Positions 1-40,489 of a DNA stretch of 64,000 nucleotides are shown piece by piece (positions within the stretch are counted from its first letter, which is position 1; each line of letters opens with the position of its first letter). The notes under the pieces were generated by a model. It searched no databases, was not told where the DNA came from, and was given only the letters and a program-made list of their open reading frames with translations. Both the position numbers and the translations under genes were made by a program. Source of the DNA: Schizochytrium sp. TIO01 (Eukaryota; Protista; Bigyra: Labyrinthulomycetes); contig SMSO01000025.1 in assembly GCA_004764695.1 (NCBI GenBank), forward strand, positions 3,224,001 to 3,288,000, given 5' to 3'.

Positions 1-645
1 GGTATCATGGCAACTCCATTCGGTTTGACCCAGGATGGCTACGAGCAGCAATTTGGCGTAAATCACGTGGGTCACTACGCTTTGACCTTGCGTTTGATGC
101 CACTGCTAGAGTCTGGCGCACCTTCCCGTGTTGTTGCGGTAGCAAGTATGGGTCACAGTTTTGCCCCAGCAGACTCTTTCGACTTCGACAAACTCAATGA
201 CAAACAATCGTACGATCCGAATGCCGCATACGGCCGCAGCAAGCTGGCAAACATTCTCTTTGCTCGCTCCCTTGCTCGCCGCGTATATAAGAAGCAGATC
301 TACGTGAATAGTGCGCACCCTGGTTTGGTTACTACTGAGCTTACTCGTTACGTGAAGGATGATCTGACGGGTTTCTTTAGCAAGGAGACCATTGAATACA
401 TGCTAAACACATTCTTCAACAGCTTAGCCATGTCACCAAAGGATGGCGCAACTACTCAGTTATTCTTGGCCATGCCTTTCATTTCTGATCGCAACATTAC
501 TGGCGAATATTACGTCCCAACTGCACGTAGACATGACTCCAATCCACTCGCTCTTAGTATCCCATTGTCTGCGATGGGACAGGATGATGCTCTTGCTGAA
601 AAGCTTTGGTCCTGGACAGCCAGAGAAACAGGTCTCGACATTTAG
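1..645 (+). CDS. Short-chain dehydrogenase/reductase (RDH12/WWOX-like), copy 1, 5' end outside window
   Basis: GIMATP...EQQFGVNHVGH, YxxxK catalytic motif (AYGRSK), HPGLVTTEL; a diverged paralog of the next two genes. Confidence 0.9.
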   Translation, partial: GIMATPFGLTQDGYEQQFGVNHVGHYALTLRLMPLLESGAPSRVVAVASMGHSFAPADSFDFDKLNDKQSYDPNAAYGRSKLANILFARSLARRVYKKQIYVNSAHPGLVTTELTRYVKDDLTGFFSKETIEYMLNTFFNSLAMSPKDGATTQLFLAMPFISDRNITGEYYVPTARRHDSNPLALSIPLSAMGQDDALAEKLWSWTARETGLDI

Positions 646-1147
646 ATGGCGAACGCTTCTCTACTAATGGACTGCGAGACTAGCTTGTTACTACATTTCG
701 GCTTTGACTCTTGGCTTTTATCTTCACTACAACGAGATTCCGCCTCGATAGAAAATGATTTTTATCTCACTGACTCGAAATTGTCTGCAAGCCAAAATTC
801 TTCTATTTCTCTACCTTGTATGCGTTGCGAGTACAAAAGGACTACTAAATTCGAATCACTAGTATCAGCATGTGCCGAAATTCCTCGTGCTTCCTATTCG
901 AAAGAAGTTCCCTGTTCTAATATTTCTCTCATCTTTCCATCTCTCATACATCACATAGAGCGATCGTTAGTGACAAAATATATTAAATGTCACATAGACA
1001 ACGACAGCGCTACAAGATGAATGACAATATTTGTTGCTTCTGGGTAGGATGACAAATGTTTTTAGTCCTTAGCTTATCGACGATTCGAATAATGTCTTCA
1101 AACTCCTAATATTGACATTTAAGGTTTTAGTATATCTCAACTAAAAG

Positions 1148-2221
1148 ATGCCGAGTTGTGCTTCGTGCTCCATCTTTGTTGTGGTCCTGGCCATTCTCGC
1201 CATGGGCCTCTTTAACGTGGTCAGTGACGGCAAGTCACGCATGTACTGGCCACCTCCGCAATGGTCAATCGAGGATATCCCATCCCTCGAGGGCCAAACT
1301 GCTCTAGTTACAGGCGCCAATGTGGGTCTCGGATACGCCAGCTCTCTGGAGCTCCTTAAGAAGGGCTGTGTCGTTATCGTTGCAACTCGATCCCCTGCCA
1401 AGAACGTTGACACCGCCAAAAAGCTCCAGGCAGAGGCCAGCCTCCCTGAAAAGTACCGCAGCAATGTGGTTGCCCCCAAGGTTGGTCTCGAGCTCAACTC
1501 TTTAGCATCTGTTGAGAAGTTTGCTGACAGCATCCTTGAGGACCACAAGAGCCTAAACGTTCTTCTTAACAACGCTGGCATCATGATGACTCCGTATGGT
1601 CTGACCAAGGATGGGTATGAGCAGCAGTTTGGCGTAAACCACGTTGGTCACTACGCATTGACTCTTCGTCTGATGCCTTTGTTGGAGGCTGGTGCGCCAT
1701 CTCGGGTTGTTGCTGTGACAAGTCTTGGTCACCGTTTTGCGTCTTCGGATGCCCTCGATTTTGACAAGTTGAACGACGAAGCATCTTACAGCCCTACAGC
1801 GGCTTATGGGCGTAGCAAGCTTGCAAACATTTTGTTTGCTCGTGCTCTTGCTCGGCGCGTGAATGATAAGCAGATCTATGTGAACGCTGCGCATCCTGGG
1901 TTTGTTGCGACCGAACTTGCTCGGCATGTTAAAGACTCCATGTTCCAATTTCTCAGCAAGGACAATATCGAGTACTTCATGCAGACTCTCACCAATATGG
2001 TTGCGATGACACCGACAGAAGGTGCAACCACTCAGCTCTATCTATGCATGCCTGAGATTGCAAAGCGGAATATCACTGGCGAGTATTACGTGCCGACTGC
2101 TCGCAAGCATGACTCTCATCCCTTGGCTCTGAGCGGTCCAATGTCTGATATGGCTAAGGACGATGTTCTTGCTGAGAAGCTCTGGGCATGGACGGCCAAG
2201 GAAAGTGGCCTTGACCTTTGA
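1148..2221 (+). CDS. Short-chain dehydrogenase/reductase (RDH12/WWOX-like) with N-terminal membrane anchor, copy 2
   Basis: TGANVGLG Rossmann motif, NNAG, YGRSK; hydrophobic N-terminus. Confidence 0.93.
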   Translation: MPSCASCSIFVVVLAILAMGLFNVVSDGKSRMYWPPPQWSIEDIPSLEGQTALVTGANVGLGYASSLELLKKGCVVIVATRSPAKNVDTAKKLQAEASLPEKYRSNVVAPKVGLELNSLASVEKFADSILEDHKSLNVLLNNAGIMMTPYGLTKDGYEQQFGVNHVGHYALTLRLMPLLEAGAPSRVVAVTSLGHRFASSDALDFDKLNDEASYSPTAAYGRSKLANILFARALARRVNDKQIYVNAAHPGFVATELARHVKDSMFQFLSKDNIEYFMQTLTNMVAMTPTEGATTQLYLCMPEIAKRNITGEYYVPTARKHDSHPLALSGPMSDMAKDDVLAEKLWAWTAKESGLDL

Positions 2222-3194
2222 GCGATTTAGAGCAATGGATCTTGAGTTGGAATGTAGCAATCATAGTTGGCACGCCGCTCTCTTCATTACCAGGTACTAC
2301 AAATCTACAGTTTAAAACTTCTAAAACTATCCACAAGCTATTGGATTTCCTGTTCAAGTTTCCTAAGCCTTTTCTAGGCCCTTACTTTTTAACTCTCAAC
2401 ATACATTGTTTAATCATATGCCTTCATTTTACACAAACCCGGGAAGACTATAGCCATCCCTCATTCTCTGTATGATTCATTTTCGAGAGTAGGATTGTTC
2501 GAAAGGATACAACAAACTAAAATAATCTGAATGGTGCCAATGTAAAACCTCACTCGGATAAGCGTTTAGGCGGTCATCATCATGATATCACCTTCCGTTT
2601 TTGTTATATTAATTGAACTTTGGTAAGAGCTTCATGATGGCATTCCTTCAGGTTGTGGCTTCGCATTTGTTTTGGTTCCGAAGAGTGAATCTGTTTTGTA
2701 TCTACGCTCTTAAACACCCAGGCGGAAAAAGCTAATGCAGGATATTATGGACTTGGTATTTTCTTTTTTCTGTTAAGAAGGTACCTTGTACCCCTAACTA
2801 CCGACATTCTAACGACATATCCAGATCTTTCTATGTATTCTTGCGTATCAAGTCACGGCTTCCTCGAGTGGCCAAGACATTCTTCTTTGCTCTTGGCTAC
2901 CCAAAACATTACCCTCCTTTTAGACTTTCATTTAATCAATTAGAATTGACAAACCATAATATACGTCTGTTCGTGCCTAACGATCTGTACGGGTACCTAA
3001 CACATGATCAGAACAAAGAAGAGAGAGGTAGTAGTATATCTTTCAGGGGCCTCTAGCTCTGAGCTTGCAGACTTTCTAAGATTCAGAACCTTAACGAATA
3101 GGACACCCTGTGTCACAGGGTGACTATATACGAGGACAACCTTAGAAAATAGACTCAACAATAGCGAAGCTGTGTTGATACTAAAGTAATCAAC

Positions 3195-4268
3195 ATGCCG
3201 AGTTGTGCTTCGTGCTCCATCTTTGTTGTGGTCCTGGCCATTCTCGCCATGGGCCTCTTTAACGTGGTCAGTGACGGCAAGTCACGCATGTACTGGCCAC
3301 CTCCGCAATGGTCAATCGAGGATATCCCATCCCTCGAGGGCCAAACTGCTCTAGTTACAGGCGCCAATGTGGGTCTCGGATACGCCAGCTCTCTGGAGCT
3401 CCTTAAGAAGGGCTGTGTCGTTATCGTTGCAACTCGATCCCCTGCCAAGAACGTTGACACCGCCAAAAAGCTCCAGGCAGAGGCCAGCCTCCCTGAAAAG
3501 TACCGCAGCAATGTGGTTGCCCCCAAGGTTGGTCTCGAGCTCAACTCCTTAGCATCTGTTGAGAAGTTTGCTGACAGCATCCTTGAGGACCACAAGAGCC
3601 TAAACATTCTTCTTAACAACGCTGGCATCATGATGACTCCGTATGGTCTGACCAAGGATGGGTATGAGCAGCAGTTTGGCGTAAACCACGTTGGTCACTA
3701 CGCATTGACTCTTCGTCTGATGCCTTTGTTGGAGGCTGGTGCGCCATCTCGGGTCGTTGCTGTGACAAGTCTTGGTCACCGTTTTGCGTCTTCGGATGCC
3801 CTCGATTTTGACAAGTTGAACGACGAAGCATCTTACAGCCCTACAGCGGCTTATGGGCGTAGCAAGCTTGCAAACATTTTGTTTGCTCGTGCTCTTGCTC
3901 GGCGCGTGAATGATAAGCAGATCTATGTGAACGCTGCGCATCCTGGGTTTGTTGCGACCGAACTTGCTCGGCATGTTAAAGACTCCATGTTCCAATTTCT
4001 CAGCAAGGACAATATCGAGTACTTCATGCAGACTCTCACCAATATGGTTGCGATGACACCGACAGAAGGTGCAACCACTCAGCTCTATCTATGCATGCCT
4101 GAGATTGCAAAGCGGAATATCACTGGCGAGTATTACGTGCCGACTGCTCGCAAGCATGACTCTCATCCCTTGGCTCTGAGCGGTCCAATGTCTGATATGG
4201 CTAAGGACGATGTTCTTGCTGAGAAGCTCTGGGCATGGACGGCCAAGGAAACTGGCCTTGACCTTTAA
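3195..4268 (+). CDS. Short-chain dehydrogenase/reductase, copy 3 (nearly identical to copy 2)
   Basis: Same motifs; only V/I and S/T amino-acid differences from copy 2 in the ORF track. Confidence 0.93.
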   Translation: MPSCASCSIFVVVLAILAMGLFNVVSDGKSRMYWPPPQWSIEDIPSLEGQTALVTGANVGLGYASSLELLKKGCVVIVATRSPAKNVDTAKKLQAEASLPEKYRSNVVAPKVGLELNSLASVEKFADSILEDHKSLNILLNNAGIMMTPYGLTKDGYEQQFGVNHVGHYALTLRLMPLLEAGAPSRVVAVTSLGHRFASSDALDFDKLNDEASYSPTAAYGRSKLANILFARALARRVNDKQIYVNAAHPGFVATELARHVKDSMFQFLSKDNIEYFMQTLTNMVAMTPTEGATTQLYLCMPEIAKRNITGEYYVPTARKHDSHPLALSGPMSDMAKDDVLAEKLWAWTAKETGLDL

Positions 4269-17375: not shown

Positions 17376-18196
17376 GATTTCACGGATCAAAGAGCGCTCG
17401 GGAGAACTTACCTATCGTCTATCATGTCACTGGTACTGATTTACCATATGTACAAATAGAGTCGCTATCTCCCCGGCGAGTTAGCTGGAGGGTATTTATC
17501 CGAGAGTGGAGCCTCTCATGGTTCTTCGCCATCGCAGGTCCACGGTGGAGCCTTAGGAAATAGCCTTTAATTGCGCAAACGCTTCAACAAGAAGAGCTGA
17601 GCTGCCACGGAGGAGAGAGAAGCACCTCAATCCCGAAGGTGGCTCGGGCCTCTGCCTGCATTTCACGCAGAGCCTTTCGAGCTAGACAGAACTCGGAAAG
17701 GAACGTCGGGGAAACCCATCATCTCAGCCATTTCTCTCTCTACCATCGTTCCAAAATCTGGTTGATCCTTTTTCTTTTCTTTGCAATTTAAGTTGACTTC
17801 GAAATTCTGACTACTACATTACACCTAGCTTTAACCATAGCAATGTGTACCTTTTCAGGGCGTTCTGTTATTTTTTATCCCTACCTACCCTAGGTAATAC
17901 TTATATGCGTTTGAAGATCAAGAGGGTTTTACTTTTATATTCAAAGATGATATGAAATATAGTCTACAACAATAATAATAGTATGATAACAATTAACGGA
18001 GTTTCTTCTTTTGGTCAGGGCGTGGATCAAATCGTTTATCCTGAGCGGCATTTCTAGGTACTAGCGATTGCCCCCCCCCTGAAAGCCATGGCTTGCCTGT
18101 AAACTTCATCATGATGGAGGTACCTGAATGGCAATTCCTATAGGCAGCTAGTTTGCTTCATCACTCAAGTTTTCTCACTAAAAATACTACTGCTCG

Positions 18197-19318
18197 ATGG
18201 TAAATTATGCGTGGGATCGGAGAATCTTGAAGGTGCCTACCTACGTTCATCAATTTGACGTGAGTGTGACGCTCATACAACCACAAAGTACTGTGAACTA
18301 TATAGAGGCCTATAAATCGAAGGCAAATCCTCAGTTGCTTGCCTTCTTCGCCATCATGAGTACTACTACACCAACACTTGTACAGAAGCTGGTGAAGGAA
18401 AGGGAAGAAATAGATACGAATGACGCTGATTGATTTTGTAATGTCACGCATTTGAGGATCCCAAGCTGGGGCGTTGCTGATATCTTATTTGCCAGGAGAT
18501 GATGATGTAAGGAAGCATTTCCTGATGGGTCAACCTAACGCCCTCGATTCCTATAAAGAGAGTGAAAAAAAACAAAACATAAATACGCTTCGTCCTTTGG
18601 CGAACTCGCGCCGCTGGAAAAAGATACTCGTAACAATGCAGCGGACATCCTCATAAAGTATGGAGGGTTCACGTGGACTGACACGGGCGGTTTTATCGAA
18701 GCCAATGGAAAGCTTGGTCTCGGGGCAGTCCTTAATTTTCAGCATCAAATTTTGGACATGCTGGGTTTCCTACAAGTCCTCACGATGGTGAGGTTCACCA
18801 CAGGTCTACACGTTGAGTCCTGTGAGTTCTATGGCACACCGTTCTTGGAGGTGAGCAGCCTTCATTTATCATCTATAAATCCAGAGACGGTGAAGCAGTT
18901 TGTCATTTTCATTCCAAGTTTGGTAATGCACGGCTTCATCTTGCTCAGCATTGGTGAATCTGACAACTTACCTCTTGGGCTTGTACCTTCATTTTAAAGG
19001 TCTATGGTTGACTTCTCGCCTCGATGTTTGTTTAAGTTGACTATTTCAATTGGCAATGCCGTCATCGATGTGGATTTTGCCAAAGTCATTTGTGAAGTCG
19101 GCGCACAAATACTGACGATAAAGGGTCCGGAGAATAAGTCAATCATGCAACACATTGGTGCGTTTGCAAAGAATGAAATAATTGAGTTTCCGACTGACTG
19201 GGATCTCACAACTTTCCTCGAGAGTTATCGCACAAATATCTATGCACGCAGACGCAGCCTGATCCTCACTGACGAAAAGCAAGCATTAATATTCCAAGGC
19301 ATGCGAAATACGACTTAG
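18197..19318 (+). pseudogene. Decayed ORF of unknown function
   Basis: ORFs 18197-18433, 18752-18997 and 19004-19318 share one frame (the last two split by a single TAA); 18474-18656 is a frameshifted middle piece. Confidence 0.5.
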
Positions 19319-19493
19319 CGCAGATTATCACTTCGGTTTATGGTGTCGGCGATATGAAGCAAATGTGGATGAGGTCATGTGCATTAATACCCTCAAATTC
19401 ATTAACGACCACAACATCGTACATTCAAGCATTGTGTGCTCTCGCGTTAAAAAATAATAATATATATATATCTTATACGCTTTTATAATTATG

Positions 19494-19751
19494 CTATAGG
19501 AAGATAGGAAGTACAACTACGAAAATGGCAACGTTTTCTCCAATTAGCTCCAGACGACCCATCAAAGTACCCAGCTCTTCAAGTTCGCTGGTTGTAAAAC
19601 CATCGAATGTTTCCTCGTCACTGTCTTCGCCGCCACTTTCTTCATCGCTGTCTGTGTCGTTGTCTGTATCGCCGTGACCATCAGTGCCAGTGGCGAGATT
19701 AACCGGGCTTGATTCTTCGTCATCCAGAACTTGGTTGCGCAGCAAAACCAA
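19494..19751 (-). pseudogene. Acidic gene remnant without a clear start
   Basis: D/E-rich reading frame (DTDNDTDSDEESGGEDSDEE); no ATG at its 5' end. Confidence 0.3.
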
Positions 19752-19954
19752 AACTGCAAGTAGGTGGGTGACAGCTTACTACCTTTGGGGGATTCCATCA
19801 TGCCCAGGGTCCCGCCGCTATCCCTCGAGGAAGCACATAACTTACCCGACGAAGATGCAGCTAGCGAGATAAATCCTACCCGCATCATTTCGGCACCACT
19901 CCAAGTCTCGACGAATCTGGAAAGAAGTCTTGGTTTGATGAGCCAACACAAGAA

Positions 19955-21607
19955 ATGATTGAACTACGCCTAAGTGATCTGGCCGAAGGTCGCGCCAAAG
20001 GTCGCGCCGAAGGTGTCGTCCAAGGCGTTGCTGCGATCCGTGCCGAGTACGTTGAAACCCTCTCCGAGGGGCTTAGAAAGCCCCTGTTTCGCGCACTTAC
20101 GCGCGGTCTTTATCCATCAACTGCTGCAACACCTTCGGCATGGGGTATTGAGTACAAAAGCCTTACACTATGGTGTGGTTTCAGAAGGGAAATGATAAGC
20201 CCGTTTATCAGGGCAAATTTACTCAACATGCAAATACGCAATACTACGTTTCGAACCTCGCTCTATCCACTAAACATTAGCGGAAACACCAATGCAATGG
20301 CTAGTTTGTTTAATAATTGGTGCTGCAGGCCATTTGCTGGACTTCACACTGAGGTTGCAAATTTTCCTAAAGTCATCGTACGCATAGAAGACGATATCGG
20401 CCTTTCAGCCAAGCCTGATCTCACCTTGGTCAAAATTGATGATGAAAGAAATGAGACTGTCTTCTGTGTTGTTGAAACTAAACGTCCTAATCAGTTTTTG
20501 AGCTTGCCCCAGGACCTCAATTGGACCGAAAGGCGAGACGCCGCTGCAGCTGCGGGAATGGAGATTTTTGATAAAGTCCAAGCGCAACAAGCTCTTCGAC
20601 AATTACATGGTTATATGGTTGTCCACGGGGTCAAATACTCAATTCTCACGTCAGGAGAGCTCGCCTTTTTTGTTAAGCGGGACGACAAGGGTAACATGTG
20701 GGTCACCCGTGGTTTCTATGGTGCTGAAACTGGGCGCCCAAGAGTATTAAGCACCAACGAGGCAATGGCTGCTTTTATATATACTGCGTCCAGGAATCCT
20801 AAGAATGGAAAGTTTCTACCAAGATCAAATAGCTCGAGCCCGGGAGTCAGGGCTTATTATGAACATATTAAGACAAGTTTTGGGGCTAACTTAACCGATA
20901 GAGCTGCAGAGAAGTTCAAAGATAAGGTGAGCGAAACAGCCTTACAATTCATGTTAGGTCTAAGATTACCCGCAGGAAATATAGAGGAGCTACGCAGCAA
21001 TCTCATTGAGCTTTTACCTTTCAAGGAGGAAGCATACCTTTTCATGCCGCTGCCGTGGTCCAAAGACTACCGAGTTGTTACAAGTTATGTGGTTCGGATT
21101 CCCTGGGTTTCAGACAAAGACTTCAACTGGGATATCTTTGTGAAGACCATGCCAGTCTCTAAAGACTGGACGAGAGAGACATATGAGTTCAAAAAATCAG
21201 TTTTTCTCAACGAAGTTAAGCTGTACCTTGGCCCCCTGCGCCCGCTCCAGGGTAAACACGTTCCCTTTTTGGTGTACGGCGGCACATATCATAAACGAAT
21301 CATCATTGCCACAACCTCCTCTGGGGAGACCGCAACAAAAGAACTTATTCTTGCTAACAGTAGCTGGGCAATTACAGCCATTCGAGCATCACTTTCCGCG
21401 CTGCACCGAGCCGGTGTGCTCCATGGCGACATCGCGCTGCGTAATATCGCCATCGACACCAATACCAAGACCGCCCACTTGATCGATTTTGGCCGCTCCT
21501 CACAAGACAAAACCACCAAGATAAACAAGGACAAAGAAATGAAAGAACTGAACACACTACTGGGGTTTTCTAGTAATCGCAAGCGAATCCGAGACTCCTT
21601 TAAATGA
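19955..21607 (+). CDS. PD-(D/E)xK nuclease-fold + protein-kinase-like fusion (Crinkler-type REase+kinase); N-terminus probably extends to about 19800 across a frameshift
   Basis: KPDLTL...VVETKRP, QLHGYMVVHGVKYSILTS (REase-like); FVK, NEVKLY..LRPLQGKHVP, LHRAGVLHGDIALRNI, LIDFGRS (kinase). Confidence 0.8.
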   Translation: MIELRLSDLAEGRAKGRAEGVVQGVAAIRAEYVETLSEGLRKPLFRALTRGLYPSTAATPSAWGIEYKSLTLWCGFRREMISPFIRANLLNMQIRNTTFRTSLYPLNISGNTNAMASLFNNWCCRPFAGLHTEVANFPKVIVRIEDDIGLSAKPDLTLVKIDDERNETVFCVVETKRPNQFLSLPQDLNWTERRDAAAAAGMEIFDKVQAQQALRQLHGYMVVHGVKYSILTSGELAFFVKRDDKGNMWVTRGFYGAETGRPRVLSTNEAMAAFIYTASRNPKNGKFLPRSNSSSPGVRAYYEHIKTSFGANLTDRAAEKFKDKVSETALQFMLGLRLPAGNIEELRSNLIELLPFKEEAYLFMPLPWSKDYRVVTSYVVRIPWVSDKDFNWDIFVKTMPVSKDWTRETYEFKKSVFLNEVKLYLGPLRPLQGKHVPFLVYGGTYHKRIIIATTSSGETATKELILANSSWAITAIRASLSALHRAGVLHGDIALRNIAIDTNTKTAHLIDFGRSSQDKTTKINKDKEMKELNTLLGFSSNRKRIRDSFK

Positions 21608-21663
21608 CCTTCTGAACGAGTAAACAAATAAATTTGAAAAAAAAGACTTCAAATTTCTTACAC

Positions 21664-22277
21664 TCAAAATTCAGCAAAGAAGGTCTTCTCACTGAAAGGA
21701 GTATCTGGCATTGTGTCATAGTTCCCGGCCAAGTTAATGAAAAGTGCCATCATTTCGTCATAATCTCCTAGACGATGTATGACATGATCTAAATCGACGG
21801 GTTTATTATCAAGTGTAAAGGGAACCAAGCTGAATTTTTCTTCATCTTCTGCTCAAACTGGTGAAGAATCTCTTTGAACAGGTCCGCCCGAGCCTGAAAT
21901 CTCTCGAGACCACGCGATTCATAGATATAGAGAACACCAAGTGTAGATGATTCGACCAGGTTATACACGTATATAGCCTTTTGCATCTCATCCATCAAAA
22001 GAGTAAACCTCTCCAGATTAATTCCAACAGAACAGAGATCTTGAAGATCAGCAACGATCATTTCAATCTCATTCATCTCTCTGTCGCTAGGCTTGTTCTT
22101 ACAAAGCTCAGCAAGGCGCAGGCAACAACCTTCAAAACGGGGAGAGATATGACTCCAGACATTGGTTTCAAAGGGGCTTAGGTAGCCGCGAAGCTTCGAA
22201 TTTTCGCGCGCAACCTTGAAATCAGTAACAAGCTTCTTCACCTTGGTAAGAGGTTGACCCCGAACTGAAAAGGGCAT
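21664..22277 (-). pseudogene. Hypothetical protein, probably frameshifted near 21855
   Basis: ATG at 22277 (MPFSVRG); an alternative frame continues AEDEEKFSLVPFTLDNKPVDLDHV...FFAEF to TGA at 21666-21664. Confidence 0.5.
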
Positions 22278-22459
22278 GGTTGAGTGCAGAGATATAGTTT
22301 TTTTTAATCGGTTCGCTGCACCTACCCTGGAGTGGACAAAAGAAGAGCTGGCCAAGGAGTGAAAGCAGACAAATACCTTTCTCGACCACGTATTTGTCGC
22401 GAGAAGAGAAGCGTGCGCTGCTCCACAAGATGGATGGTTAAAACTCGCTGTAGCCGGCT

Positions 22460-23332
22460 ATGGCTCAAAAGCATATCGTGGCCGCTTCGTCGGGCAATAG
22501 CGTCGCCTGTAGTGAAATCAAAACAATGGGAGAGAGCTCTTCGTATTGCGCCGACGATTGAGCTGACGAGAGTGCGTATGTATCGACTTACTCCAAAGGA
22601 AAGTTTTCTACCGAAACCTTGCAAGGACCAAAGAGAAAGAGGAGGGGCATAGAACTCCCTCATCACATCCAAGAAGCAAGATCTCGTTTGGAAAAACTTA
22701 TAAAGACAGACAACGAAAGTATGCCTCACAAAAGTTTTTTAGAAGCCTTTTTCAAACCCCAAGTTGAACTCATGAAGGAAAATGAAGAACTTAAGCAGAA
22801 GAACCTGAGGTACGAGTTTTTTGAAAGATGGAACGACACAATTCGTGAATCATATACGATTATTCGACACTCTTTGCAAGGAGAATACATGAAGCAAACA
22901 GGGAGGGACAAAGACATTACTTCTGTGTTTAGAGATTTCTCAAACCAGCGCGCAGACGAGGTGGATAACAGATTTGCGCTAGACATTAGTCAGAAAACAC
23001 GTCAGACCCCTGATACCATCCGCAATTTTATGGAAAGACCAGATAAAGATTGGGTTACCACTTCCGAGGGTAGAAAATTCATGGACCAACGAAGTATTCA
23101 TGTCCATCTACAACCCGTATACGACTTGAAGAAATTGGCAGGCAAAGAAGTCAACAAAGATGATGTAGCGCAACTTTTCTTTGAAAAAAAGCAAGAAGCA
23201 TTAGAAAAATACAGGGAGCTCTACAACAAGGAAAAGGACGTACAATTCAAGGTATTGGAAATGCAAGTCGATTCTTTTAAAAAATCAGGAATTGAAGTTC
23301 TCGACTGCAACCCCTCACCTAATAACACATAA
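22460..23332 (+). pseudogene. Hypothetical helical/coiled-coil protein, with an in-frame TGA at 22559 if started from ATG 22460
   Basis: ATG 22460 is in frame with ORF 22619-23332; K/E-rich protein. Confidence 0.5.
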
Positions 23333-23346
23333 TCAATTTCTATCTT

Positions 23347-23655
23347 TCAAGATTTCCAGCTTACGTGCAATTTGTCTTCATTGCGCATGACCACAAAGCC
23401 CTTTGCTACAAGTGTGCGCTTGATAGCCTTTGCAAGCACAATTGGGTCTGTGCAAGATCCATCCAAGACCAGGCTTGGAGCAGTAAAGCTTAGTTCATTA
23501 TAACCTTGTCTCGCAAGAGATCGGATGAGTCGGTAAACTCGTCGCATGGTAAGGGTGTAATTAATGTCGACTCCCGACCGGTTCTCCGGGACCATGGCAC
23601 GAGCCATCGAAGCAGACAACTCGGAATCTTCATTTTCTAAAGCTCCGCGAATCAT
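23347..23655 (-). CDS. Small giant-virus-type protein, DUF5759-like
   Basis: Y..TMRRVYRLIR...ELSFTAPSLV...D...LAKAIKRTLVAKGFVV....KLHVSW matches the remembered NCLDV pattern I...IK...F.VP......D......I...L...GF.V......L.ISW. Confidence 0.6.
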   Translation of the reverse strand: MIRGALENEDSELSASMARAMVPENRSGVDINYTLTMRRVYRLIRSLARQGYNELSFTAPSLVLDGSCTDPIVLAKAIKRTLVAKGFVVMRNEDKLHVSWKS

Positions 23656-23748
23656 GAATTGTTTTTTTAGTTACACTAACCCAAATGATATTTTTTAAAC
23701 AGAAAGACTTTCTAAACTCCAAGTACGAGGTTTTTTAGTGAGTGTAAA

Positions 23749-24755
23749 ATGTCTTTCAGTGCTTCGGAAATTGAAGAACGCCTGCGTACAGCAGGTTTGA
23801 TTAAAAATCATGAAAAAATGCTTGTGTCTATGTCTAATCTCTCAGACTTCCTGAAATACATTGTGATTAGCCAACAATCTGCCGTAGCGCTGATTCCGTG
23901 CGCCTAAACATTGCTTTCTTTCACGCAGAACCAACGGCCCGTATGTTGCACGACGTTATATTCATTCGAGGCTCAATTCGGATGGACGCAGAGAACACAC
24001 GCAGTAGGAAAAGCCCCCTGCCAGCATGTGTAGTTCGTCTAGGTGCACCACGCGAGGAAGCCCCTAAAGCACACTTTTTTAGCACCAGCGAAGCCTCTGA
24101 AGTTATGATTAAAAACTGGGGAGGGGCGGCATCGTTCGCATACCTGATTATGCGCGAAATGGCACCCACCACAGAGAATGATAGAGAAGATATACCAATC
24201 ACAGACGGAGGAGCTTCCAGCTCTTACTCGTCTTGCATGACAGGAAGCGGCGACCAAGTTATCGAAACGCATCCAGTGCTTTATAGCAAATTGCACGAGC
24301 TTTTTCAATTTGATTCAGACCCCTGTCCTGTATTCCCTAAGCAAGACGCAATGACAAGCTCCTGGGGGAAACGGGCTTATTTAAACGCACCCTTCAACTA
24401 TGCAGCGGGTTTCGCCTCTCGAGCAGCCAACCTAGCCAAAGAAGAGGGTACAGTTACATTCATGCTAGCACCTGCTCGCACCGGTACCTTTTGGGTTAGA
24501 CACCTTTCTCAAAGTGGCATGCTACGTGCTATTGTATCACTTTACGGACATGCTCCATTTAAAGGACATAAAAATGGAATGATGCACGCCCTTATGCTTC
24601 TTATTATCGCGCCGCCTTGCCTGGGAGACACACAAACACTATTCCTTACCTGGGACCCCAACATTACCAACGCCCGGCGCAAAACCAAAATGAGGGACAC
24701 CTTCCCCCAGGCTCTTAATGGGTTGCTTCAGACGACGACACAGCAGCAGAAGTAG
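23749..24755 (+). pseudogene. Phage-Dam-like DNA N6-adenine methyltransferase (PF05869-like) with an extra N-terminal half-domain; one frameshift at about 23897
   Basis: FQFDSDPCP...DAMTSSWG.RAYLNAPF...MLAPARTGTFW...FKG...MLLI; ATG 23749 frame ends ...VALIPCA*, and one added base gives VALIPVRLNIAFFH. Confidence 0.65.
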
Positions 24756-25158
24756 TCGACGAATCGGTAAACTGAGACCAAGGGAATTTGGCGTCATCGG
24801 CACTACGCAGAAGCGTAAGACTCGAATTCAGAGTAACAAGGTGAAACAATGCTGCAGCGGTCTGAGAAGACAGCGGGGACTGCTTATACTTGTCCTGGTC
24901 TCCTTTGATTGCATGTTTGACTAGACGTGCAATTGCAATGGCTCCTTCAAACATCACAAAAATTGCTTGAATTCCTACCATCAACTGAATTGCAGACTTG
25001 ACTTCTTCTCCTTGAAGCAAATGTGTAAACACAAGCGTACTCATAAGCACCAATAACATTGAATACGCAACGAAGGTCATACGAAGAACAAATAAATGAT
25101 CATGATTAGAGTTCTTTCTTTCGCAAGTATAAAACAAACTTGTTCTTATGAGGTGCAT
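24715..25158 (-). CDS. Hypothetical membrane protein (2-3 TM segments)
   Basis: Hydrophobic stretches FVAYSMLLVLMSTLVF and LMVGIQAIFVMFEGAIAIA. Confidence 0.5.
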   Translation of the reverse strand: MHLIRTSLFYTCERKNSNHDHLFVLRMTFVAYSMLLVLMSTLVFTHLLQGEEVKSAIQLMVGIQAIFVMFEGAIAIARLVKHAIKGDQDKYKQSPLSSQTAAALFHLVTLNSSLTLLRSADDAKFPWSQFTDSSTTSAAVSSSEATH

Positions 25159-25170
25159 CTGAAAAAAACT

Positions 25171-25806
25171 TCATTGAGGCAGTGCTAGCGGGCGAGGGCA
25201 AGACACGGACTCCAGCCGCTCCAGGGCCTCACTGCAGATCTCTGCCGGGGACCGATTTGCCATACACGCTTGGACCGGATCAAAAGATCGATACAATTCT
25301 CCGCGGAGGCGGGCAGCGGCTCCAACATCTTCCGCCTTGCACGCAACAAGATACTGCTTGTAAGCATCTGTACGTTTCATACCCTTTTCAAATCCAAACG
25401 TCTCACAAGCACTGAGCGTTGTGCGATTACTTACGAGCTTGTAATGCCGGAAGAAACCATCTAAATTGTCCATAAGTAAAAGTCCAGCTAGGATGGATAA
25501 AAGCAAACGAACATGCACATCTCCCCACAGCAACGCAAAAAATAGTATGCTTGCGTCTAGGGAAATGCTTAATTGAATCGGGAAAACGACAGACCAAAAA
25601 GAAAGATAGTCTCGGTTAACCTGTACAACCCCCACAGCAACGAAACCAGCTATAATCAACAAGGAACCAAGCATAAATTGATTGACACGATCAGACAAGA
25701 TAAATGAAGGTCTGCTTTGATGCGCAGTACCCCTGCGAGACCGCGAAAAATACTCCAACAAGTTTGAGGGTGACTTTGATTCGCTATTATTTTGATCAAT
25801 TGACAT
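25171..25806 (-). CDS. Hypothetical membrane protein (3 TM segments, Cys-containing C-terminus)
   Basis: Intact 211-aa ORF with an A-rich ATG context and three hydrophobic segments. Confidence 0.6.
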   Translation of the reverse strand: MSIDQNNSESKSPSNLLEYFSRSRRGTAHQSRPSFILSDRVNQFMLGSLLIIAGFVAVGVVQVNRDYLSFWSVVFPIQLSISLDASILFFALLWGDVHVRLLLSILAGLLLMDNLDGFFRHYKLVSNRTTLSACETFGFEKGMKRTDAYKQYLVACKAEDVGAAARLRGELYRSFDPVQACMANRSPAEICSEALERLESVSCPRPLALPQ

Positions 25807-25848
25807 CTTTATGTTTTACTTGCTTACTTAGGAAGTCTAAAAAACCTT

Positions 25849-26949
25849 TCATTTTGGGTTCTTAGAAGCCGGGGTCTTAGGAGCATTCAAGACAAGCTCA
25901 TCACCACTCCTTTCACCCCCCTCTTCGTCAGACGCTTCGTTGCTAGACGCTTTGTCGCCGGGCCGTTCGTTATCACTTACTAACGTGGCATCTTCTGCTT
26001 GTCTTTCTTGTGGTGAATCCACTACGCTGGAACTGCTTTCTAAGGCATCTTCCCGTGGTGCCCTCTTTTCCTTAGAAACAATCTCGATCATATCTTCCCA
26101 TTCTTTCTGCAGTGAACCAACATGTTTCTTGACGACTGTGTCCCGAATTGAATTTTTCAGGTTATTCTTAAAGAGAGTGTAAACATTGAATACCCCCGAA
26201 ACAATAGACTCACTAGAAGCGAAGTCGAAGTCATTCGGAATACCCCCAGGGACCTTGAAACTCACGTAATCTTGAAGCATTTTTCGATTTCGAATGAATT
26301 ACGCGTCGGATTAAAGTACGCTCTCAAGAAGGCCAAGCGCTGTTCCTTGTTTTTGTCGCGACGATTTGTCGAGCGATAATGAAACGGACGAGGATTCATA
26401 TTCTTAAAATCCAGATGTATAAAGACTTTATTGGCTCGGTTCTTTTCGATCATCACATCAATGATCTTTTGGTGAAGTTCCTCTAGGTTTGCATCAGCAG
26501 CAGGACTGTTGTGAGGCAACACAGAGGAAGGATCGCGACCTTCATCTTCATCACTTTCGTTATCACTGGCAACCCCTGGTACGCATTGCACACACTTGTA
26601 CAATGTAGAGACCAGTAAAATGTTGATATCATTGCAGCAATCACACACAAAACACCAGGGGTTACAATGTGCCTGATGTTCTTAAAAATCAGTCCCGAAA
26701 AATCGCGCATGCTTATGAAATGGCGAATTAAAAGATGGGATTTCGGAATTCAAAGCCCTGTAAAAGAATCAAACTAAAAGTATTCATTGGGTGTACGATA
26801 TTCTTTTCTGGGTAGTGAATCTTCGCGTCACAGTCTCCAAGTAGATCAATAGAGACTTCGTTACCAATTCTGCCATAGCTGATTTCCTTGAATGAAAAGG
26901 GCCAAAGCGTAAATCGCAGGTCTATGCAAATGGTACACTGGTGGTAAAA
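25849..26949 (-). pseudogene. 5'-truncated, multiply frameshifted Cys-rich (CxxC) protein with acidic tail
   Basis: Successive frames: FYHQCTICIDLRF...(from 26949), MRDFSGLIFKNIRHIVTPGV, CDCCND...KCVQC..., MLQDYVSF...SNEASDEEGG. Confidence 0.5.
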
Positions 26950-27049
26950 TCACGAAAAACAAAATATCAAGTTGTTTTATTTTGTTTTAGATACAAAGGA
27001 CACTAATCTTGAAATACAATCTCAACATCTCAGCGCACGCGTGGTAGTC

Positions 27050-28389
27050 ATGGCGGATCAGAGTGAACACGGGCATTCTCATGGGGACGACATGGACCTT
27101 GCAAGAGCCGAGGCCATTGAAGAGGAAGATGCGCACTTCAACGAAGTTTTGCACGGGTTCATGACATATGAAATGGACATGCTGGAGGTGCTGGGCCGTC
27201 GTGAGCGCAACGTGAAGCGTGTCCCCGAGCTAGTGCAGATGTTGCCTGGTGGTAAAGATGGCCTTGAACAGAAATACAACGATCTCCGGACGGCTGTTCG
27301 TAAAAACCAAAACTTTTTCAACGAGGTCGTTGAGAACTGCAAGGGGCGTGCGAAACTAGCCCGCTTGCCCAGTCTCTCGACACAAATTAGAAATCTCACC
27401 AAGGTCCGGAGCACGCTTCACCAATGCGCCCGGGAGTGGTCTGCCGAAGGCCAAGAGGAGCGCGATAAGTGTTTCGCACCGCTTCTAAAGTGGCTTCAGG
27501 AGTACGTTGAGGCTGGTACTGAAGGCAATAAACGCGTTCTCGTGCCAGGCGCTGGCCTTGGCAGACTTCTTGCAGAGGTAGTCGGTCTTGGGTACAGCTG
27601 CGAGGGCAATGAGTTCTCCTATCAGATGCTCGTAACGAGTGAGTATATTTTAAATGTGATGCAGAGCTCCGACCCTTCACGGCAGCTCCAAATTCATCCT
27701 TGTAAGTTCATAAATGTTGATATCAATATCCCATTATGTTAGTTAATGGTTGATGTTCAATTAAATGTTTCTATTGCGCGAAATCATGTCCTCTAACCTT
27801 CAACATACCCAAATGCTTCTGCCGATTGCACGCTATTTTTTTTAACGGGCTGTTTCTCATAAATATAGGGATTCATAACCCTTCGAATGTGGTGAAGAAC
27901 GAGGATGCATGCAGAACAGTTAGCATACCTGATATCGCAGCAACAGAAATTCTCTACCGCAACCCAAACAACAAGGCAGAGATGAGCATGTGTGCCGGTG
28001 AGTTCTTGCTTGTGTATGGCAAGGATGTAGAAAAATGGGACTCTGTTGTCACGTGTTTCTTCATTGACACTGCCCCAAATGTTCTTGAATATCTCAAGGT
28101 TATTCACCGCTGCTTGAAACCTGGTGGTGTTTGGATCAATGGTGGACCTCTTCTGTGGCACTGGCAAAACAGTGGTCCACGTTCTGCCAGCGAGGGTGCT
28201 TCTGAAGGTCAAGATGAGCGTTACGAGACCTCAATTGAACTTTCGTGGGAGGAAGTTAAGGCTGTTGCAGAACGAGTTGGCTTCGAATTCCGCGATGAAC
28301 TCAGACAAGTTATTGGTTACAACACCAACGCCTCGAGCATGTCGCAGTCCGTCTATCATATTGTGCAGTCTGTGGCGGTGAAAAAGTAG
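27050..28389 (+). CDS. CARNMT1: Carnosine N-methyltransferase / N2227-like SAM methyltransferase, 2 exons (27050-27701, 27869-28389)
   Basis: KVRSTLHQCAREWSAEG, VLVPGAGLGRL, GNEFSYQM, VVTCFFIDTAPN, WINGGPLLWH; GT-AG intron restores IHP-W-IHN. Confidence 0.88.
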
Positions 28390-29221
28390 ATTTTTCGCTC
28401 TCGATTGGTTTGCTCTTATTTGAAGAATGAAGCAAATATTTGGATGGTAGCTTGGTTAATTCGAACTTATTATAAGAAAAGCGATAGCAGATTTACGAAA
28501 AATATGACTCTGGCACTGTTTTTCTTTCTTGATTTGAAGCTTTCATGTATGTTTCTTTTGAGGGCTTAAAGCCTAGCTGTCTTTTCCAGTTTTTCTTATA
28601 GTAGTTTTAAAAGCAAGCGTTTTGAAATTCATTCTTGAAGGAACTTCACTAAAACAACATCAATTTATTCTTTTTATTTCTTTTCTCTAAAGTTGAATAA
28701 TCTTCCTGACCCAAGTCAGGAAGAAATCATTGAAAATGCCAAAAACGAAATTCTCAGCATAATTTTATTTCTAAACAGCGTGAGTTACGATACTTGAGGA
28801 TTCCGCAAAACAAAAGAAAGACCTTTACTTTAGAAGGGCCAGAAAACAATTGTTAGAGCGTCATCGTATTTGTCAAATGACCGCTGGAAAGAAGCTGAAT
28901 ACCACTTTTTTTTCCTTTTATAAATGATTAAAATCAGTATAATTTGATATTGTAATGAAGACGCAAGTGCCCAGCGAGGCTTTTAAATCTTTAAAATATA
29001 TATAGAAGAAAGAGAGTTTTACGTAATAAGAGGGTAAATAACACAGAGAAATCTCTTTGACATCCACTTATGTTTCTTATTCATCATCATCGACAACAGC
29101 ACCACTATTATCGTCATCGTCGTTTCTATGGCCCTAAAGAAGCAGGAAGAAAAGCGAAGGAGCCTGCATCATGATTCTATTTTGCTGAACTGAAAAAAGA
29201 GTGCGAATAGGGTCTTCTCTC

Positions 29222-37640: not shown

Positions 37641-40040
37641 TCATGTGTCTATGACAGAGATAGAAACAACAAAAACATTTAAATCAATAAAAATAGAGAA
37701 AGGAAAAGACAGGAAAGGTAACGAGAGATTGCGATTCAGTGATTGATTACACAAACTCAGTGCGACGAGCGGGGTTGGTGTTTGTACGTACTTTGGAACT
37801 GCGAAGTGTCGCCAATGGGTGTTAGGTAGTAACCAATGACTTGCGAAGTTGTTTGTCAATTTTTCATTGAACTCCGCGAGAACTTCATTGGTGCGGTGCC
37901 TATAGAAGTATGCCACATCAAAGATAAACCACGTCCTTAAATCGATAAGCTTCTTGAACATGTTCTTGTCCAAAGAATAGTTAATATCTTCTATGAGCTC
38001 TTGGATACTACGATTCTCGGGTAGATGAAATGAAAGACACACGAGAAAGGACAACTTCGAAAAGTCAAGATCATAATCATCGATTTGGGCTCGAATATCG
38101 GTGCGAACAACACTAAATACTGATATACCTTCAAAAACTGTAATGTCGGATGAAATGCTGCATACCATGGGGGTATTGTTATGGTCGAAAAGAGGTTTTG
38201 AGTTTCTACGATCCACCTAGACAGTATAAGAAGAAGGATCACCCTTTGAAAGGTCTCTATACCTACGAATTTCGAGAAGTCCATAGTCAAGTACATCATT
38301 GATTATGACCAATCGATTACGCTCTGTAAGCAATTTCAAGTCGTCACTATCGAGAGGTGTGAAATCTCTTCGAAGTTTGTCAAAATCAGAGTAAGCAAAG
38401 TTCTGATCTACCGCTTTCGAGATAACAAAAGCGCACAATCGAATGTAAAGAGTGTCAATTAGGTCACGGTTTGCGCCAAAGTTTGGAATGCATGTTAAAA
38501 CCGAGCTGCTCATCAACCCACAACTTTCGTTCAATGTTGCAATTAGAATAGGAGCCATTTGAGCATGATACATTGACCGCGACTTGTGGGGCCTGCCTTG
38601 ACAACACTGAATATGCCGGAATGCTCAGCTGATTCAATCGTTAGGTCAAAGTGACAATTCTGGTTATTGGTAGAACCAAGTGCTGAATTGAAATTCCAGT
38701 TCGCTTGGAAAGGCATCTCAGTGATTGTTAAGATCAAAAGAACCTTTAGTGCCCTGACCGAGTAACTTCTAATGCTATGTTTACGTTCACGTCCAGATGG
38801 TTGCGCACCCTCCAAAGTCAACGGACTATGCTACTTGCGATTCCCACGTGGCGAGAGAAAAAACACCCCCGAGAAAATCAATCAGAGTACATCTAACCCT
38901 GAAAGTATCCTCGAGTATATTGGGTGGATCGCCCAAAGCCTCCATTGCAGCCTTTGCCTTTTTGTCGTTAGGGTTATTACGCAGAATATCAGTGTAAACA
39001 TCGACATCATGCGCCTTGCAACAAAAGTCAAGCAGCTTTTCATTGTATGACATGGGGAAAATTGCTCTCATGGCGATCGTATAAAATCGTAGATGGCCAC
39101 CCAATTCAGACATAAGCCCTGAGAAGTATTCATTGTACATTAGATAATGCCAATAGTCCAATCTAGGATCACCGACCGAGCTATTATTGTGATTTGATTG
39201 TCGAATGGCCTGAAACAGAACCCCCTTCATGAATTGGAGTTCAAGGTCCTCAAGTGCTTCTTTATAACCGATAAGGCTCCCCAGGGTAATGACAGCCGTG
39301 CTATTTAGACTACTCACGGTATGTGCACGACCGTGATCACCTTCACTAGCTTCGATATAGCTTGTCATACCTGTGACGATGGGGTAGACGCGCAGAGCAT
39401 CATTTCTTTTCAACAAAAGTGTCTCAGTGCATGCCTCAATAAGCATCCTTGAGCCCAACATATCTTCTCTGTAATCGTCTATATGAAGAAACAAGATCAA
39501 CATGATGAGAAAATCTACTAGACTGAGGTTGTATGCGTGTTGCATTAAGCACTGTGCCTCTCGACCATCTAACCCTTTACGATTACTGGCGGCGTAAAGC
39601 AGAACAGCAATAAGATATGCTGTCATATTCTTGGAGTTGTCACCATCATTGTCAATGTTGGCAAAATATAGAGCAGAGCGCAACTTGCCAACTTTACCCA
39701 TACGTAGACAAAAATAAGACGCATTGTTATTATATTTTGCACGGGTTTGTTTGCACATGGCCCATGCGATTTCAAATCCTAAGCGTGTCTTACCACATCC
39801 ACTTGGACCCTTGATGATTGGAAATCCAAAGTACTGTGGATTGACATTTTTTTCGAAAACCTTTTCTAAACGAAGCTCGAGGGCATTTAACAATGATCTA
39901 GTCATATCCCAAACCACATATTCAAATGCGTAGTTGATCATAGGGGCCTGGTCTTCGATCGTATCGATGTATTCAACTAAGCTTGCCAACTCGTCTAAAG
40001 TCGCGTGTGATTCGAGTGAAGGGCTGATGAAGCGATCCAT
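37641..40040 (-). pseudogene. Disrupted P-loop NTPase gene (Crinkler/CR-NTPase-like)
   Basis: Walker A IIKGPSGCGKTRL, Walker B LFLHIDDY; ORFs 38826-40040, 38217-38573 and 37641-38216 share one frame, and 38543-38821 is a frameshifted bridge. Confidence 0.6.
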
Positions 40041-40489
40041 GACAACTTAATTGTGGAGGGATGCTTTAAAAAAGTTTGCAGAAACAACTACATCTTCGAG
40101 ATGAATCTGAACATTGATGCAAATCAGGCACGTGCGCGAATCAAAGTGACAAAACGACTGCTCACAAAAATTGAAGCCTCCTAAAAGTTCCTCCCTAAAG
40201 TAGGTTTCGCTTCAGTTGATCCGGATTCCTGCTTGTGCCTTGTCTACTAGCAGGGAACACATATAAACTAAAATAGCAATACTTATTCAAACAGTATATG
40301 ACGAAGTTGAAGTCTCCAAGAGGTGTTGCACCCCCTTTTTCAAAAACAGGTCAAATGACCTAGTGCAACTAAGAATAAAGACACAGTATCTAAATGCCAT
40401 GTTAATTTAAAGTCCAATATAGAGGAGTATGATAAAGAGTATGTATTTAAATTAGTTACATAGACGCAGACATATGCACGAGATACAGT

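What the first reader, a model, noticed from the sequence alone, without database searches (positions are those of the whole stretch)
21664..26950. Decaying endogenous large-DNA-virus-like gene block inside host chromosome
Seen in sequence: about 7 intronless ORFs packed head-to-head and tail-to-tail with spacers of roughly 10-200 bp or short overlaps, and no microsatellites. Four of them carry frameshifts or stops, whereas the flanking host genes (bZIP, CARNMT1) are intact. The last gene has no start and begins about 100 bp from the CARNMT1 ATG. Knowledge: DUF5759-like and phage-Dam-like genes are typical of large DNA viruses, and thraustochytrids are known to carry mirusvirus-like endogenous elements. 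Inference: this is a fragment of an NCLDV/mirusvirus-type genome, possibly from an undescribed lineage, since I recognise none of the other ORFs.
Basis: partly seen in the sequence, partly recalled or inferred. Interest (0 to 1): 0.85.

Follow-up and report, generated by a model that had tools for sequence, protein, structure and literature searches.

The report
Duplicated, transcribed skiavirus-like endogenous gene cassette
A marine protist carries several divergent, partly transcribed copies of a roughly 7-kb block of tightly packed genes that likely came from an old insertion of a recently described giant-virus group (skiaviruses) and was likely copied around the genome afterwards, so it is a repeated viral relic rather than the single dying insert first proposed.

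Summary
The packed, intronless block is real and joined to host DNA in 4 of 4 DNA runs laid. Viral origin is supported for one gene. The 102-aa ORF (23347-23655) belongs to a DUF5759-like family whose only organism-named member is from SmDNAV, the prototype skiavirus. Its other placed relatives lie in contigs with nucleocytovirus capsid or A32 genes. A phage-type Dam-like gene lies beside it, and Dam is a reported core skiavirus gene. This points to Nucleocytoviricota, not mirusvirus. The block is one copy of a repeat family with contigs 85-100% alike. The repeat also covers a nuclease+kinase gene to the left (19955-21607). Copies are covered by spliced-RNA runs. Of the four 'lesions', one stop is probably a normal gene end, two frameshifts are absent from other contigs (assembly error or private damage), and the last gene is truly broken here. 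No integrase, transposase, terminal repeat or empty site was found. Best reading: an old skiavirus-type fragment, later duplicated, with intact and eroding copies. Five ORFs remain orphans. It is a new member of a known kind.

The parts
19555..26570 (.). Approximate repeated unit: the stretch matched by other copies at 85% identity or more. The true ends may lie further out.
   Evidence: contigs break up and summed depth rises to about 1.1-4.6 times the flank level over 19.6-26.7 kb in 4 of 4 DNA runs. Loose ends of other copies lie at 19555, 19600, 19737, 26568 and 26571.
19494..19775 (-). Acidic ORF, 3' part. This copy lacks 358 bases at 19736/19737 that one RNA run carries there.
   Evidence: T-run loose end before 19447 in X17 (poly(A)-like, 47 nt past the stop); X17 joint with 358 letters between. 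X1, X3 and X10 contigs run across the junction to 19766.
19955..21607 (+). PD-(D/E)XK-type nuclease plus C-terminal kinase (550 aa from the first Met; frame open from 19865). Crinkler C-terminal/Spok-like architecture. No viral homologue found.
   Evidence: kinase, Kdo E 3.7e-5; weak HSDR_N_2/VRR_NUC hits; the homologue P0051 hits HSDR_N at E 0.003. Motifs PD..ETK, QLHGYM, HGDIALRN and DFG read from the sequence..
21664..22277 (-). Orphan ORF A (about 200 aa), split at about 21848 in the window only
   Evidence: the extra base is in all covering contigs of 8 of 8 runs. No Pfam, PHROG, NCBIfam or IMG/VR hit.
22562..23332 (+). Orphan ORF B (charged, helical-looking; Met at 22721 or 22772), missing from some copies
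   Evidence: only a weak Baculo_VP91_N hit below the cut-off; joints 22249>23346 and 22196>23619.
23347..23655 (-). Intact 102-aa DUF5759-like gene of nucleocytovirus (skiavirus-type) affinity
   Evidence: model and fold searches.
23749..24755 (+). Phage-type DNA N6-adenine methyltransferase-like gene (PF05869 type; DPC and NAPF motifs), preceded by a degenerate second Dam-like domain; split at about 23900 in the window
   Evidence: phrog_111, E 3.9e-7; Dam E 7.6e-5 for intact P0002, below the cut-off.
24715..25080 (-). Orphan membrane ORF 2 (two hydrophobic segments; frame open from 25170)
25171..25806 (-). Orphan membrane ORF 1 (211 aa, about three hydrophobic segments), intact
25849..26949 (-). 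Last orphan gene, really broken in this copy: frame break at about 26273; stops and frame changes upstream of 26681; no start
   Evidence: the window's form is in contigs 25827-26400, while another copy in X1 and X13 has one more base at 26273.
27050..28389 (+). Host carnosine N-methyltransferase (CARNMT1), intact, one intron (27702-27868); right flank, single copy
   Evidence: CARME E 1e-31 and 8e-46. GT..AG joint in 4 of 4 RNA runs.
18182..19318 (+). Broken orphan reading frames left of the repeat, single copy; membership in the cassette unknown
   Evidence: (unique contig; a 42-bp stretch at 19036-19077 matches elsewhere).

Best explanation
This is one partly broken copy of a roughly 7-kb gene cassette found in several divergent, partly transcribed copies in this thraustochytrid-like genome, likely derived from an old insertion of a skiavirus-type (SmDNAV-like) nucleocytovirus and likely multiplied afterwards by host duplication. 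Steps: (1) Inferred: a stretch of a persistently infecting, nucleus-dependent skiavirus integrated before the sampled strains diverged. (2) Shown: the stretch is now linked to a nuclease+kinase gene and repeated, with the same gene order, in copies 85-99% alike. (3) Inferred: copying went by segmental duplication or ectopic recombination, since no integrase, transposase or terminal repeat is seen. (4) Shown: copies lose different parts (ORF B, half of Dam, most of the block in one strain; the last gene here). (5) Partly shown: some copies are transcribed, and the Dam-like and DUF5759-like genes look constrained at the protein level. It cannot make a virus: no capsid, ATPase or replication gene is in the block.
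For: Viral gene: 41 hits among 1.84 billion proteins. I dropped the sister copy P0001 and two repeat-protein artefacts (P0003, P0013); 15 of the 39 aligned rows hit DUF5759, best E 2.8e-5. Of 20 hits looked up, only one cluster names an organism: SmDNAV BCU09190.1, 34% identity, E 2.8e-7. The one IMG/VR locus found is IMGVR_UViG_3300020185_000043, which Latimer et al. name as holding skiavirus gene hits. That record encodes MCP, YqaJ, PCNA and DUF5832. L007 and L012 place the gene next to WLM and A32. Dam is called a core skiavirus gene in the same preprint. Repeat family: 111-127 contigs per DNA run over 11.2 kb, with 30-54 per run under 95% identity, against single near-identical contigs on both flanks. 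Collinear paralogous contigs of 1.4-3.2 kb link neighbouring genes. Transcription: the nuclease+kinase gene and ORFs A and B are covered in 4 of 4 spliced-RNA runs, and DUF5759, Dam and the membrane ORFs in 2 of 4, while bin 17400-17773 has depth 0-1.4. Constraint: Dam domains 89-92% identical between copies, linker 50%; 6 of 8 listed changes in ORF A and DUF5759 are synonymous against about 23-28% expected, p 0.003-0.008. Precedent: partial duplicated viral insertions at 85-95% identity in Acanthamoeba (PMC12210455).
Against: Only 1 of the 7 ORFs has a viral sequence homologue, and the query itself does not hit DUF5759 in Pfam. The tree of that gene is unresolved and gives no supported group with SmDNAV. 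No other window ORF matches the 67-kb skiavirus-like record or L007/L012, and synteny is not shared. The Dam-like gene could not be compared with any skiavirus Dam; its best matches were phage genes at about 30%, and such genes also occur in mirusviruses. There is no compositional sign of foreign DNA. No empty site was seen in 8 runs. Summed contig depth is not a copy number. The synonymous count rests on 8 changes from truncated tables and may include window errors.
Confidence: 0.62

Rival explanations
1. The block is a non-autonomous piece of a larger mobile element (a Starship/Helitron-like cargo carrier or a Polinton-like virus) that captured nucleocytovirus genes; its mobility genes sit in other copies.
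For: Several dispersed, collinear copies with modular gene loss. Nuclease+kinase genes of this architecture are tied to transposon-rich regions in oomycetes (PMC5289972) and to a large mobile block in Podospora (PMC6660238). Phage-type Dam genes are common in Polinton-like viruses (recalled).
Against: No transposase, integrase, recombinase, pPolB or capsid hit in Pfam, PHROGs or NCBIfam. No terminal inverted or direct repeat above chance level in 17400-27100. This copy is at the same place in 4 of 4 DNA runs.
Confidence: 0.15
2. The cassette is kept and spread as a selfish unit. The nuclease+kinase gene would act as a Spok-like poison-antidote (nuclease kills, kinase protects), with the viral genes, including the Dam-like methyltransferase, carried along or helping.
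For: Same domain order as Spok and Crinkler REase+kinase proteins; catalytic motifs intact in the sequence. The gene has the highest summed depth of the block and is covered in 4 of 4 RNA runs. 39 of 47 listed changes are non-synonymous, while residues 381-530 stay 94-98% identical to P0050, against 2 of 8 in the viral ORFs (Fisher p 0.002).
Against: No sequence test against Spok was possible and no activity is shown. 8 of 47 synonymous does not differ from neutral (p 0.10-0.39). No cysteine cluster was noted before the kinase. A meiotic stage in which drive could act is not established here.
Confidence: 0.1
3. It is a cluster of lineage-specific host genes in a segmental duplication, with one or two genes acquired singly from viruses.
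For: Host-like GC and CpG, transcription, presence in all strains, five orphans without viral hits. Single-gene exchange between skiaviruses and thraustochytrid nuclei is reported.
Against: Spacers of 14-93 bp, unlike the host spacing in this window. Two virus-type genes are adjacent, head to head. A shared GT6-8A motif sits near four or five starts (post hoc). No named eukaryotic homologue appeared in three homology searches.
Confidence: 0.1
4. One reading: a single decaying fragment of a mirusvirus or unknown large DNA virus.
For: The last gene and the left end are damaged in this copy.
Against: The block is multi-copy, transcribed and has intact sister copies. Its DUF5759-like relatives lie in contigs with nucleocytovirus capsid or A32 genes. 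Six motifs from the block were found 0 times in the AurliV supplementary files.
Confidence: 0.03

Closest known systems
Fragmentary, duplicated giant-virus insertions of Acanthamoeba str. Neff (PMC12210455; passages read)
   Same: Partial chunks of a larger virus, duplicated at 85-95% identity, without terminal inverted repeats, showing deletion and recombination between copies.
   Different: Those are described as methylated, heterochromatic, subtelomere-biased and poorly conserved between strains. This copy is at one place in 4 of 4 DNA runs, lies among ordinary host genes, and its family is covered by RNA runs. Methylation was not tested here.
Skiavirales / 'Ariadnavirales' (SmDNAV and relatives; bioRxiv 10.64898/2026.07.28.741200 and 10.64898/2026.08.29.747986)
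   Same: Thraustochytrid hosts; a DUF5759-like gene with an SmDNAV homologue (BCU09190.1); a Dam methyltransferase; dense intronless genes.
   Different: Known members are 190-252 kb episomal or lytic genomes with MCP, A32 and VLTF3. This is a 7-kb chromosomal fragment with none of these, and five ORFs have no match in the viral contigs I could test.
AurliV-2 / LE-Chr15 and AurliV-1 mirusviruses of Aurantiochytrium limacinum (bioRxiv 10.1101/2023.06.15.545109; PMC12606086)
   Same: Virus-derived DNA in what is probably the same or a closely related host.
   Different: Different realm. Those are near-complete ~270-300 kb genomes tied to rDNA or episomal. No DUF5759 annotation and none of six block motifs in their supplementary files.
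Crinkler-type REase+kinase C-termini and Podospora Spok proteins (PMC5289972, PMC6660238; passages read)
   Same: PD-(D/E)XK-type nuclease followed by an atypical (Kdo/Bud32-like) kinase in one protein, multi-copy.
   Different: No Crinkler header domain, coiled coil or cysteine cluster was identified. Homology was not tested by sequence, and here the gene is linked to virus-type genes.

Membership tests
Endogenous Nucleocytoviricota fragment | Joined to host chromosomal DNA | tested here: met
   unique flank contigs run into the block on both sides in 4 of 4 DNA runs; contig 26386-28600 spans the last gene and the spliced host CARNMT1.
Endogenous Nucleocytoviricota fragment | Genes whose closest relatives are nucleocytovirus genes | tested here: met
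   Met for 1 of 7 ORFs. The Dam-like gene is compatible; five ORFs are orphans.
Endogenous Nucleocytoviricota fragment | Empty site in a related genome | tested here: inconclusive
   None in the 8 runs laid. One contig in X13 joins 19524 to 25692 with only 30 letters on the short side, and it cuts inside a gene, so it is a deletion and not an empty site. Other genera could not be searched.
Giant endogenous viral element (near-complete provirus) | Hallmark genes (MCP, A32 ATPase, VLTF3, PolB) over tens to hundreds of kb | tested here: not met
   No hallmark hit among the block's ORFs; the unit is about 7 kb.
Skiavirales / Ariadnavirales | Placement in the MCP-A32-VLTF3 tree | not testable with these tools
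   The block has none of these genes.
Skiavirales / Ariadnavirales | Shared genes group with skiavirus homologues | tested here: inconclusive
   The named homologue is SmDNAV and the nearest row by path is the skiavirus-hit contig, but the 43-row tree has no supported group joining them.
Mirusviricota (AurliV-1/-2) | HK97 capsid, terminase or portal genes, or identity with AurliV genes | tested here: not met
   No such family hit; 0 occurrences of 6 block motifs in 7 supplementary files. Exact motifs only, and cells are cut at 400 characters, so distant homologues are not excluded.
Polinton-like virus / DNA transposon | Integrase, recombinase or transposase gene and terminal repeats | tested here: not met
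   for this copy only; other copies were not seen whole.
DUF5759 (PF19063) | Score above the Pfam gathering cut-off | tested here: inconclusive
   The query has no hit. 15 of 39 aligned rows hit at E up to 1, best 2.8e-5. The L001 homologue scores 17 bits against a cut-off of 25. DUF5759-like by transitive homology.
Phage-type Dam (PF05869) | Family score and motifs I (DPC) and IV (NPPY/F) | tested here: inconclusive
   22.9 bits against a cut-off of 28.1. It aligns with two phage adenine methyltransferases across the motifs, but motif IV reads NAPF in both copies, so activity is uncertain. The structure model failed (pLDDT 33).
Spok-like single-gene poison-antidote | Nuclease domain kills and kinase domain gives resistance | not testable with these tools
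   Only the architecture matches.

The most novel reading that the evidence does not exclude
A domesticated or selfish cassette: skiavirus-derived genes, including a DNA adenine methyltransferase, fused into one unit with a Spok/Crinkler-like nuclease+kinase. The unit would spread and persist in a thraustochytrid genome as a poison-antidote element, or act as an antiviral module, in a host with no known skiavirus infection.
Probability: 0.12. Interest if true: 0.85.

Novelty: new member of a known kind. Interest (0 to 1): 0.5.

Why it matters
Skiaviruses were described in 2026 as episomal or lytic viruses of thraustochytrids. In the parts of both preprints I read, no integrated fragment is characterised. 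If the assignment holds, this block is a fossil showing that skiavirus DNA enters the nucleus and chromosomes, as their predicted nuclear dependence implies. It would also show that a host known only for mirusviruses met a skiavirus in the past. Intact, transcribed sister copies make retention of viral genes testable in a genetically tractable, industrially used protist. A practical lesson: apparent decay in an assembly can be an artefact or a single-copy feature when the region is a repeat.

Tried and rejected
No whole genome was held, so copies could not be counted or mapped. No listed run is on record as RNA; four 'RNA?' runs were judged to be RNA from the spliced CARNMT1 intron. Bins without RNA cover in X19 and X20 (23384-25253) are not read as silence. 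The ESM Atlas gave no answer. IMG/VR scans with the window's DUF5759-like ORF, intact Dam (P0002), ORF A, the SmDNAV homologue and the nuclease+kinase alignment found nothing; the metagenome scan with the Dam-like ORF found nothing. These scans need near-exact peptides. The A32 scan returned only the record already held. No Dam match in that 67-kb record (18% complete). No NCLDV capsid or block match in the MAG holding L012. PDB sequence searches were blank. Fold searches of the DUF5759-like model (pLDDT 66) gave no match at E 0.001 or better: BFVD rows mix nucleocytovirus and phage proteins, and PDB rows are Smr/IF3-C-like folds at Z up to 6.3, within the common range. The Dam model was unusable. 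Composition gave no boundary. A bacterial promoter scan was uninformative. Earlier scan notes held no look-alike. Rejected: assembly chimera (junction contigs in 4 of 4 DNA runs); LORE-TEAR or subtelomeric repeat (no such tandem array in the window); high-copy episome as the source of the extra depth (ratios stay at or below about 4.6 in four strains).


Full report
WHAT IS THERE. Seven ORFs lie in 21664-26950, in mixed orientation, mostly with spacers of -41 to 93 bp. Host genes in the window are mostly 0.5-2 kb apart. Right of the block is an intact CARNMT1 with one intron. Left of it is not bZIP but a 550-aa nuclease+kinase gene (19955-21607), an acidic ORF and a broken orphan gene. GC, CpG, lack of introns and lack of microsatellites do not separate the block from host DNA. 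The host is inferred to be an Aurantiochytrium-like thraustochytrid.

IT IS A REPEAT FAMILY. 20 of 24 listed runs, from 13 studies, hold the stretch; 14 hold half or more of its words. I laid 4 DNA runs. Both flanks are single contigs with 0-11 differing letters (17400-19065; 26386-28600), so the junctions are real. Between about 19.6 and 26.6 kb the contigs shatter: 111-127 are laid per run, 30-54 of them under 95% identity. Summed depth there is about 1.1-4.6 times the flank level. Depth is not a copy number, but together with the divergent contigs it shows several other copies. The repeat includes the nuclease+kinase gene. Contigs of 1.4-3.2 kb from the RNA runs, about 92-98% alike, keep the same gene order. 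Copies differ in content: joints skip ORF B (22249>23346, 22196>23619), 49 bases of the DUF5759-like gene, or 702 bases including the start of Dam. One contig of one strain skips 19525-25691, on weak support (30 letters on the short side). No empty site was seen.

DECAY IS COPY-SPECIFIC AND PARTLY DOUBTFUL. At 21848 all covering contigs in 8 of 8 runs carry one more base than the window. At 23900 so do all contigs in 5 of the 6 covering runs, and 798 of 1216 depth in the sixth. An intact 329-aa protein (P0002, 83% identical) joins both halves of the Dam-like gene. These two breaks are either errors in a hard-to-polish repeat or lesions private to this copy; contigs drop variants, so I cannot decide. 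The stop at 25171 is probably the end of a separate gene, since other copies have a 1-base deletion at 25135, upstream of the next likely start (25080). The last gene is truly broken here: the X1 contig 25827-26400 matches the window with no difference or gap, while another copy differs at 26273, and the 5' part has stops. This copy also lacks 358 bases at 19736/7 that X17 carries, and all 4 RNA runs show a 10-base insertion at 19906.

TRANSCRIPTION AND CONSTRAINT. The four 'RNA?' runs all skip the CARNMT1 intron (GT..AG), so they are RNA. The nuclease+kinase gene and ORFs A and B are covered in 4 of 4 runs; the DUF5759-like, Dam-like and membrane ORFs in 2 of 4. Most of these contigs come from sister copies. 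Between the window and P0002 the two Dam-like domains are 92% and 89% identical and the linker 50%. Among the substitutions printed (about 80 of over 1100; the tables are cut), 6 of 8 in ORF A and the DUF5759-like ORF are synonymous, against 22-29% expected (p 0.003-0.008). In the nuclease+kinase gene 8 of 47 are, which does not differ from neutral. The sample is small.

VIRAL ORIGIN. The 102-aa ORF found 41 proteins among 1.84 billion: its sister copy, two repeat artefacts that I dropped, and 38 true homologues. 15 of the 39 aligned rows hit DUF5759; the query itself does not. I looked up 20 of the hits. One cluster names an organism: Sicyoidochytrium minutum DNA virus, BCU09190.1. The family led to five distinct loci. 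L001 lies in IMGVR_UViG_3300020185_000043, named by Latimer et al. as carrying skiavirus gene hits; that record encodes a nucleocytovirus capsid, YqaJ, PCNA and DUF5832. L006 is a short near-copy of it. L007 and L012 (92% alike) have the gene next to WLM, with A32 nearby. L008 is too short to tell. The tree is unresolved. The neighbouring gene is Dam-like: phrog_111 E 3.9e-7, Pfam Dam E 7.6e-5 below the cut-off, weak tblastn matches mostly to annotated phage methyltransferases. It has DPC and NAPF motifs and a degenerate second Dam-like domain in front (weak, three-sequence database). Latimer et al. call Dam a core skiavirus gene, but I could not obtain a skiavirus Dam to compare. No other ORF matched the viral loci. 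Six block motifs were absent from the AurliV-1/-2 supplementary files.

HOW IT MOST LIKELY WORKS. A piece of a skiavirus-type genome was inserted before these strains diverged (inferred). It became linked to a nuclease+kinase gene of Crinkler/Spok-like architecture, for which no viral homologue was found. The unit was duplicated a few times, probably by host recombination, because no mobility gene or terminal repeat is seen (inferred). Copies now erode independently while some stay open and transcribed (shown). It cannot form a virus. Rivals are cargo of a larger mobile element (0.15), a poison-antidote cassette (0.10), host gene duplication with single viral genes (0.10) and the single decaying mirusvirus fragment (0.03).

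COMPARISON AND NOVELTY. Duplicated partial viral insertions at 85-95% identity are known from Acanthamoeba (PMC12210455), so the kind is known. What appears new is a skiavirus-affiliated chromosomal fragment, fixed across strains and transcribed. Searches, and term look-ups, found no description of this locus. [quoted passage not shown] Supplements of these three bioRxiv preprints are closed and could already list these genes. What I read: Latimer et al., parts 1-3 of 6, the first part of the Discussion and passages; Yutin et al., parts 1-3 of 4 and one passage; Collier et al., parts 1-3 of 4; PMC12606086, search listing and term searches in its supplements; PMC6660238, PMC5289972 and PMC12210455, passages only. 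The statement that Polinton-like viruses often carry Dam, and the motif numbering for methyltransferases, are recalled.

VERDICT. Observation partly confirmed; interpretation partly supported. New member of a known kind; interest 0.5.

Noticed in passing
window 22297, 22734, 23661, 23729 (+) and 25846 (-): A G-T(6-8)-A motif occurs 5 times in 5.35 kb of the block against 5 times in 56.4 kb of the rest of the window; with a following G, 4 against 0. The hits lie within about 6-40 nt of likely start codons. Found post hoc; it may be a shared promoter element.
   Followed up: partly
window 23749-24100: The N-terminal third of the Dam-like protein resembles the C-terminal half of a second, degenerate Dam domain, so the gene looks like a tandem duplication. 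Motif IV of the full domain reads NAPF in both copies.
   Followed up: partly
window 18182-19318 (+): Single-copy run of broken orphan reading frames with RNA cover; a 42-bp stretch (19036-19077) matches another place in the genome. May be an older, more diverged part of the cassette.
   Followed up: partly
window 37644-40046 (-): Three in-line orphan ORFs (406, 135, 191 aa) separated by stops, with no Pfam or PHROG hit; possibly another broken gene.
   Followed up: partly
window 1-4268: Tandem short-chain dehydrogenase-like genes; two copies about 2047 bp apart are 100% identical over the 300-nt reference stretch.
   Followed up: no
L012 (JAAETO010000075.1, 15.5 kb): A contig filed in an Arcobacter MAG is nucleocytovirus-like (A32, WLM, DUF5759-like genes) and 92% identical to metagenome locus L007; probably a mis-binned skiavirus-like virus.
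   Followed up: partly
L001 4863-6725: In the skiavirus-like record the A32 ATPase gene is interrupted by a stretch carrying an endonuclease-like ORF on the opposite strand, which suggests a mobile intron.
   Followed up: no
window 22275-22278: The first Met codons of ORF A (-) and of an upstream + strand frame overlap in one CATG, an exact head-to-head arrangement.
   Followed up: no
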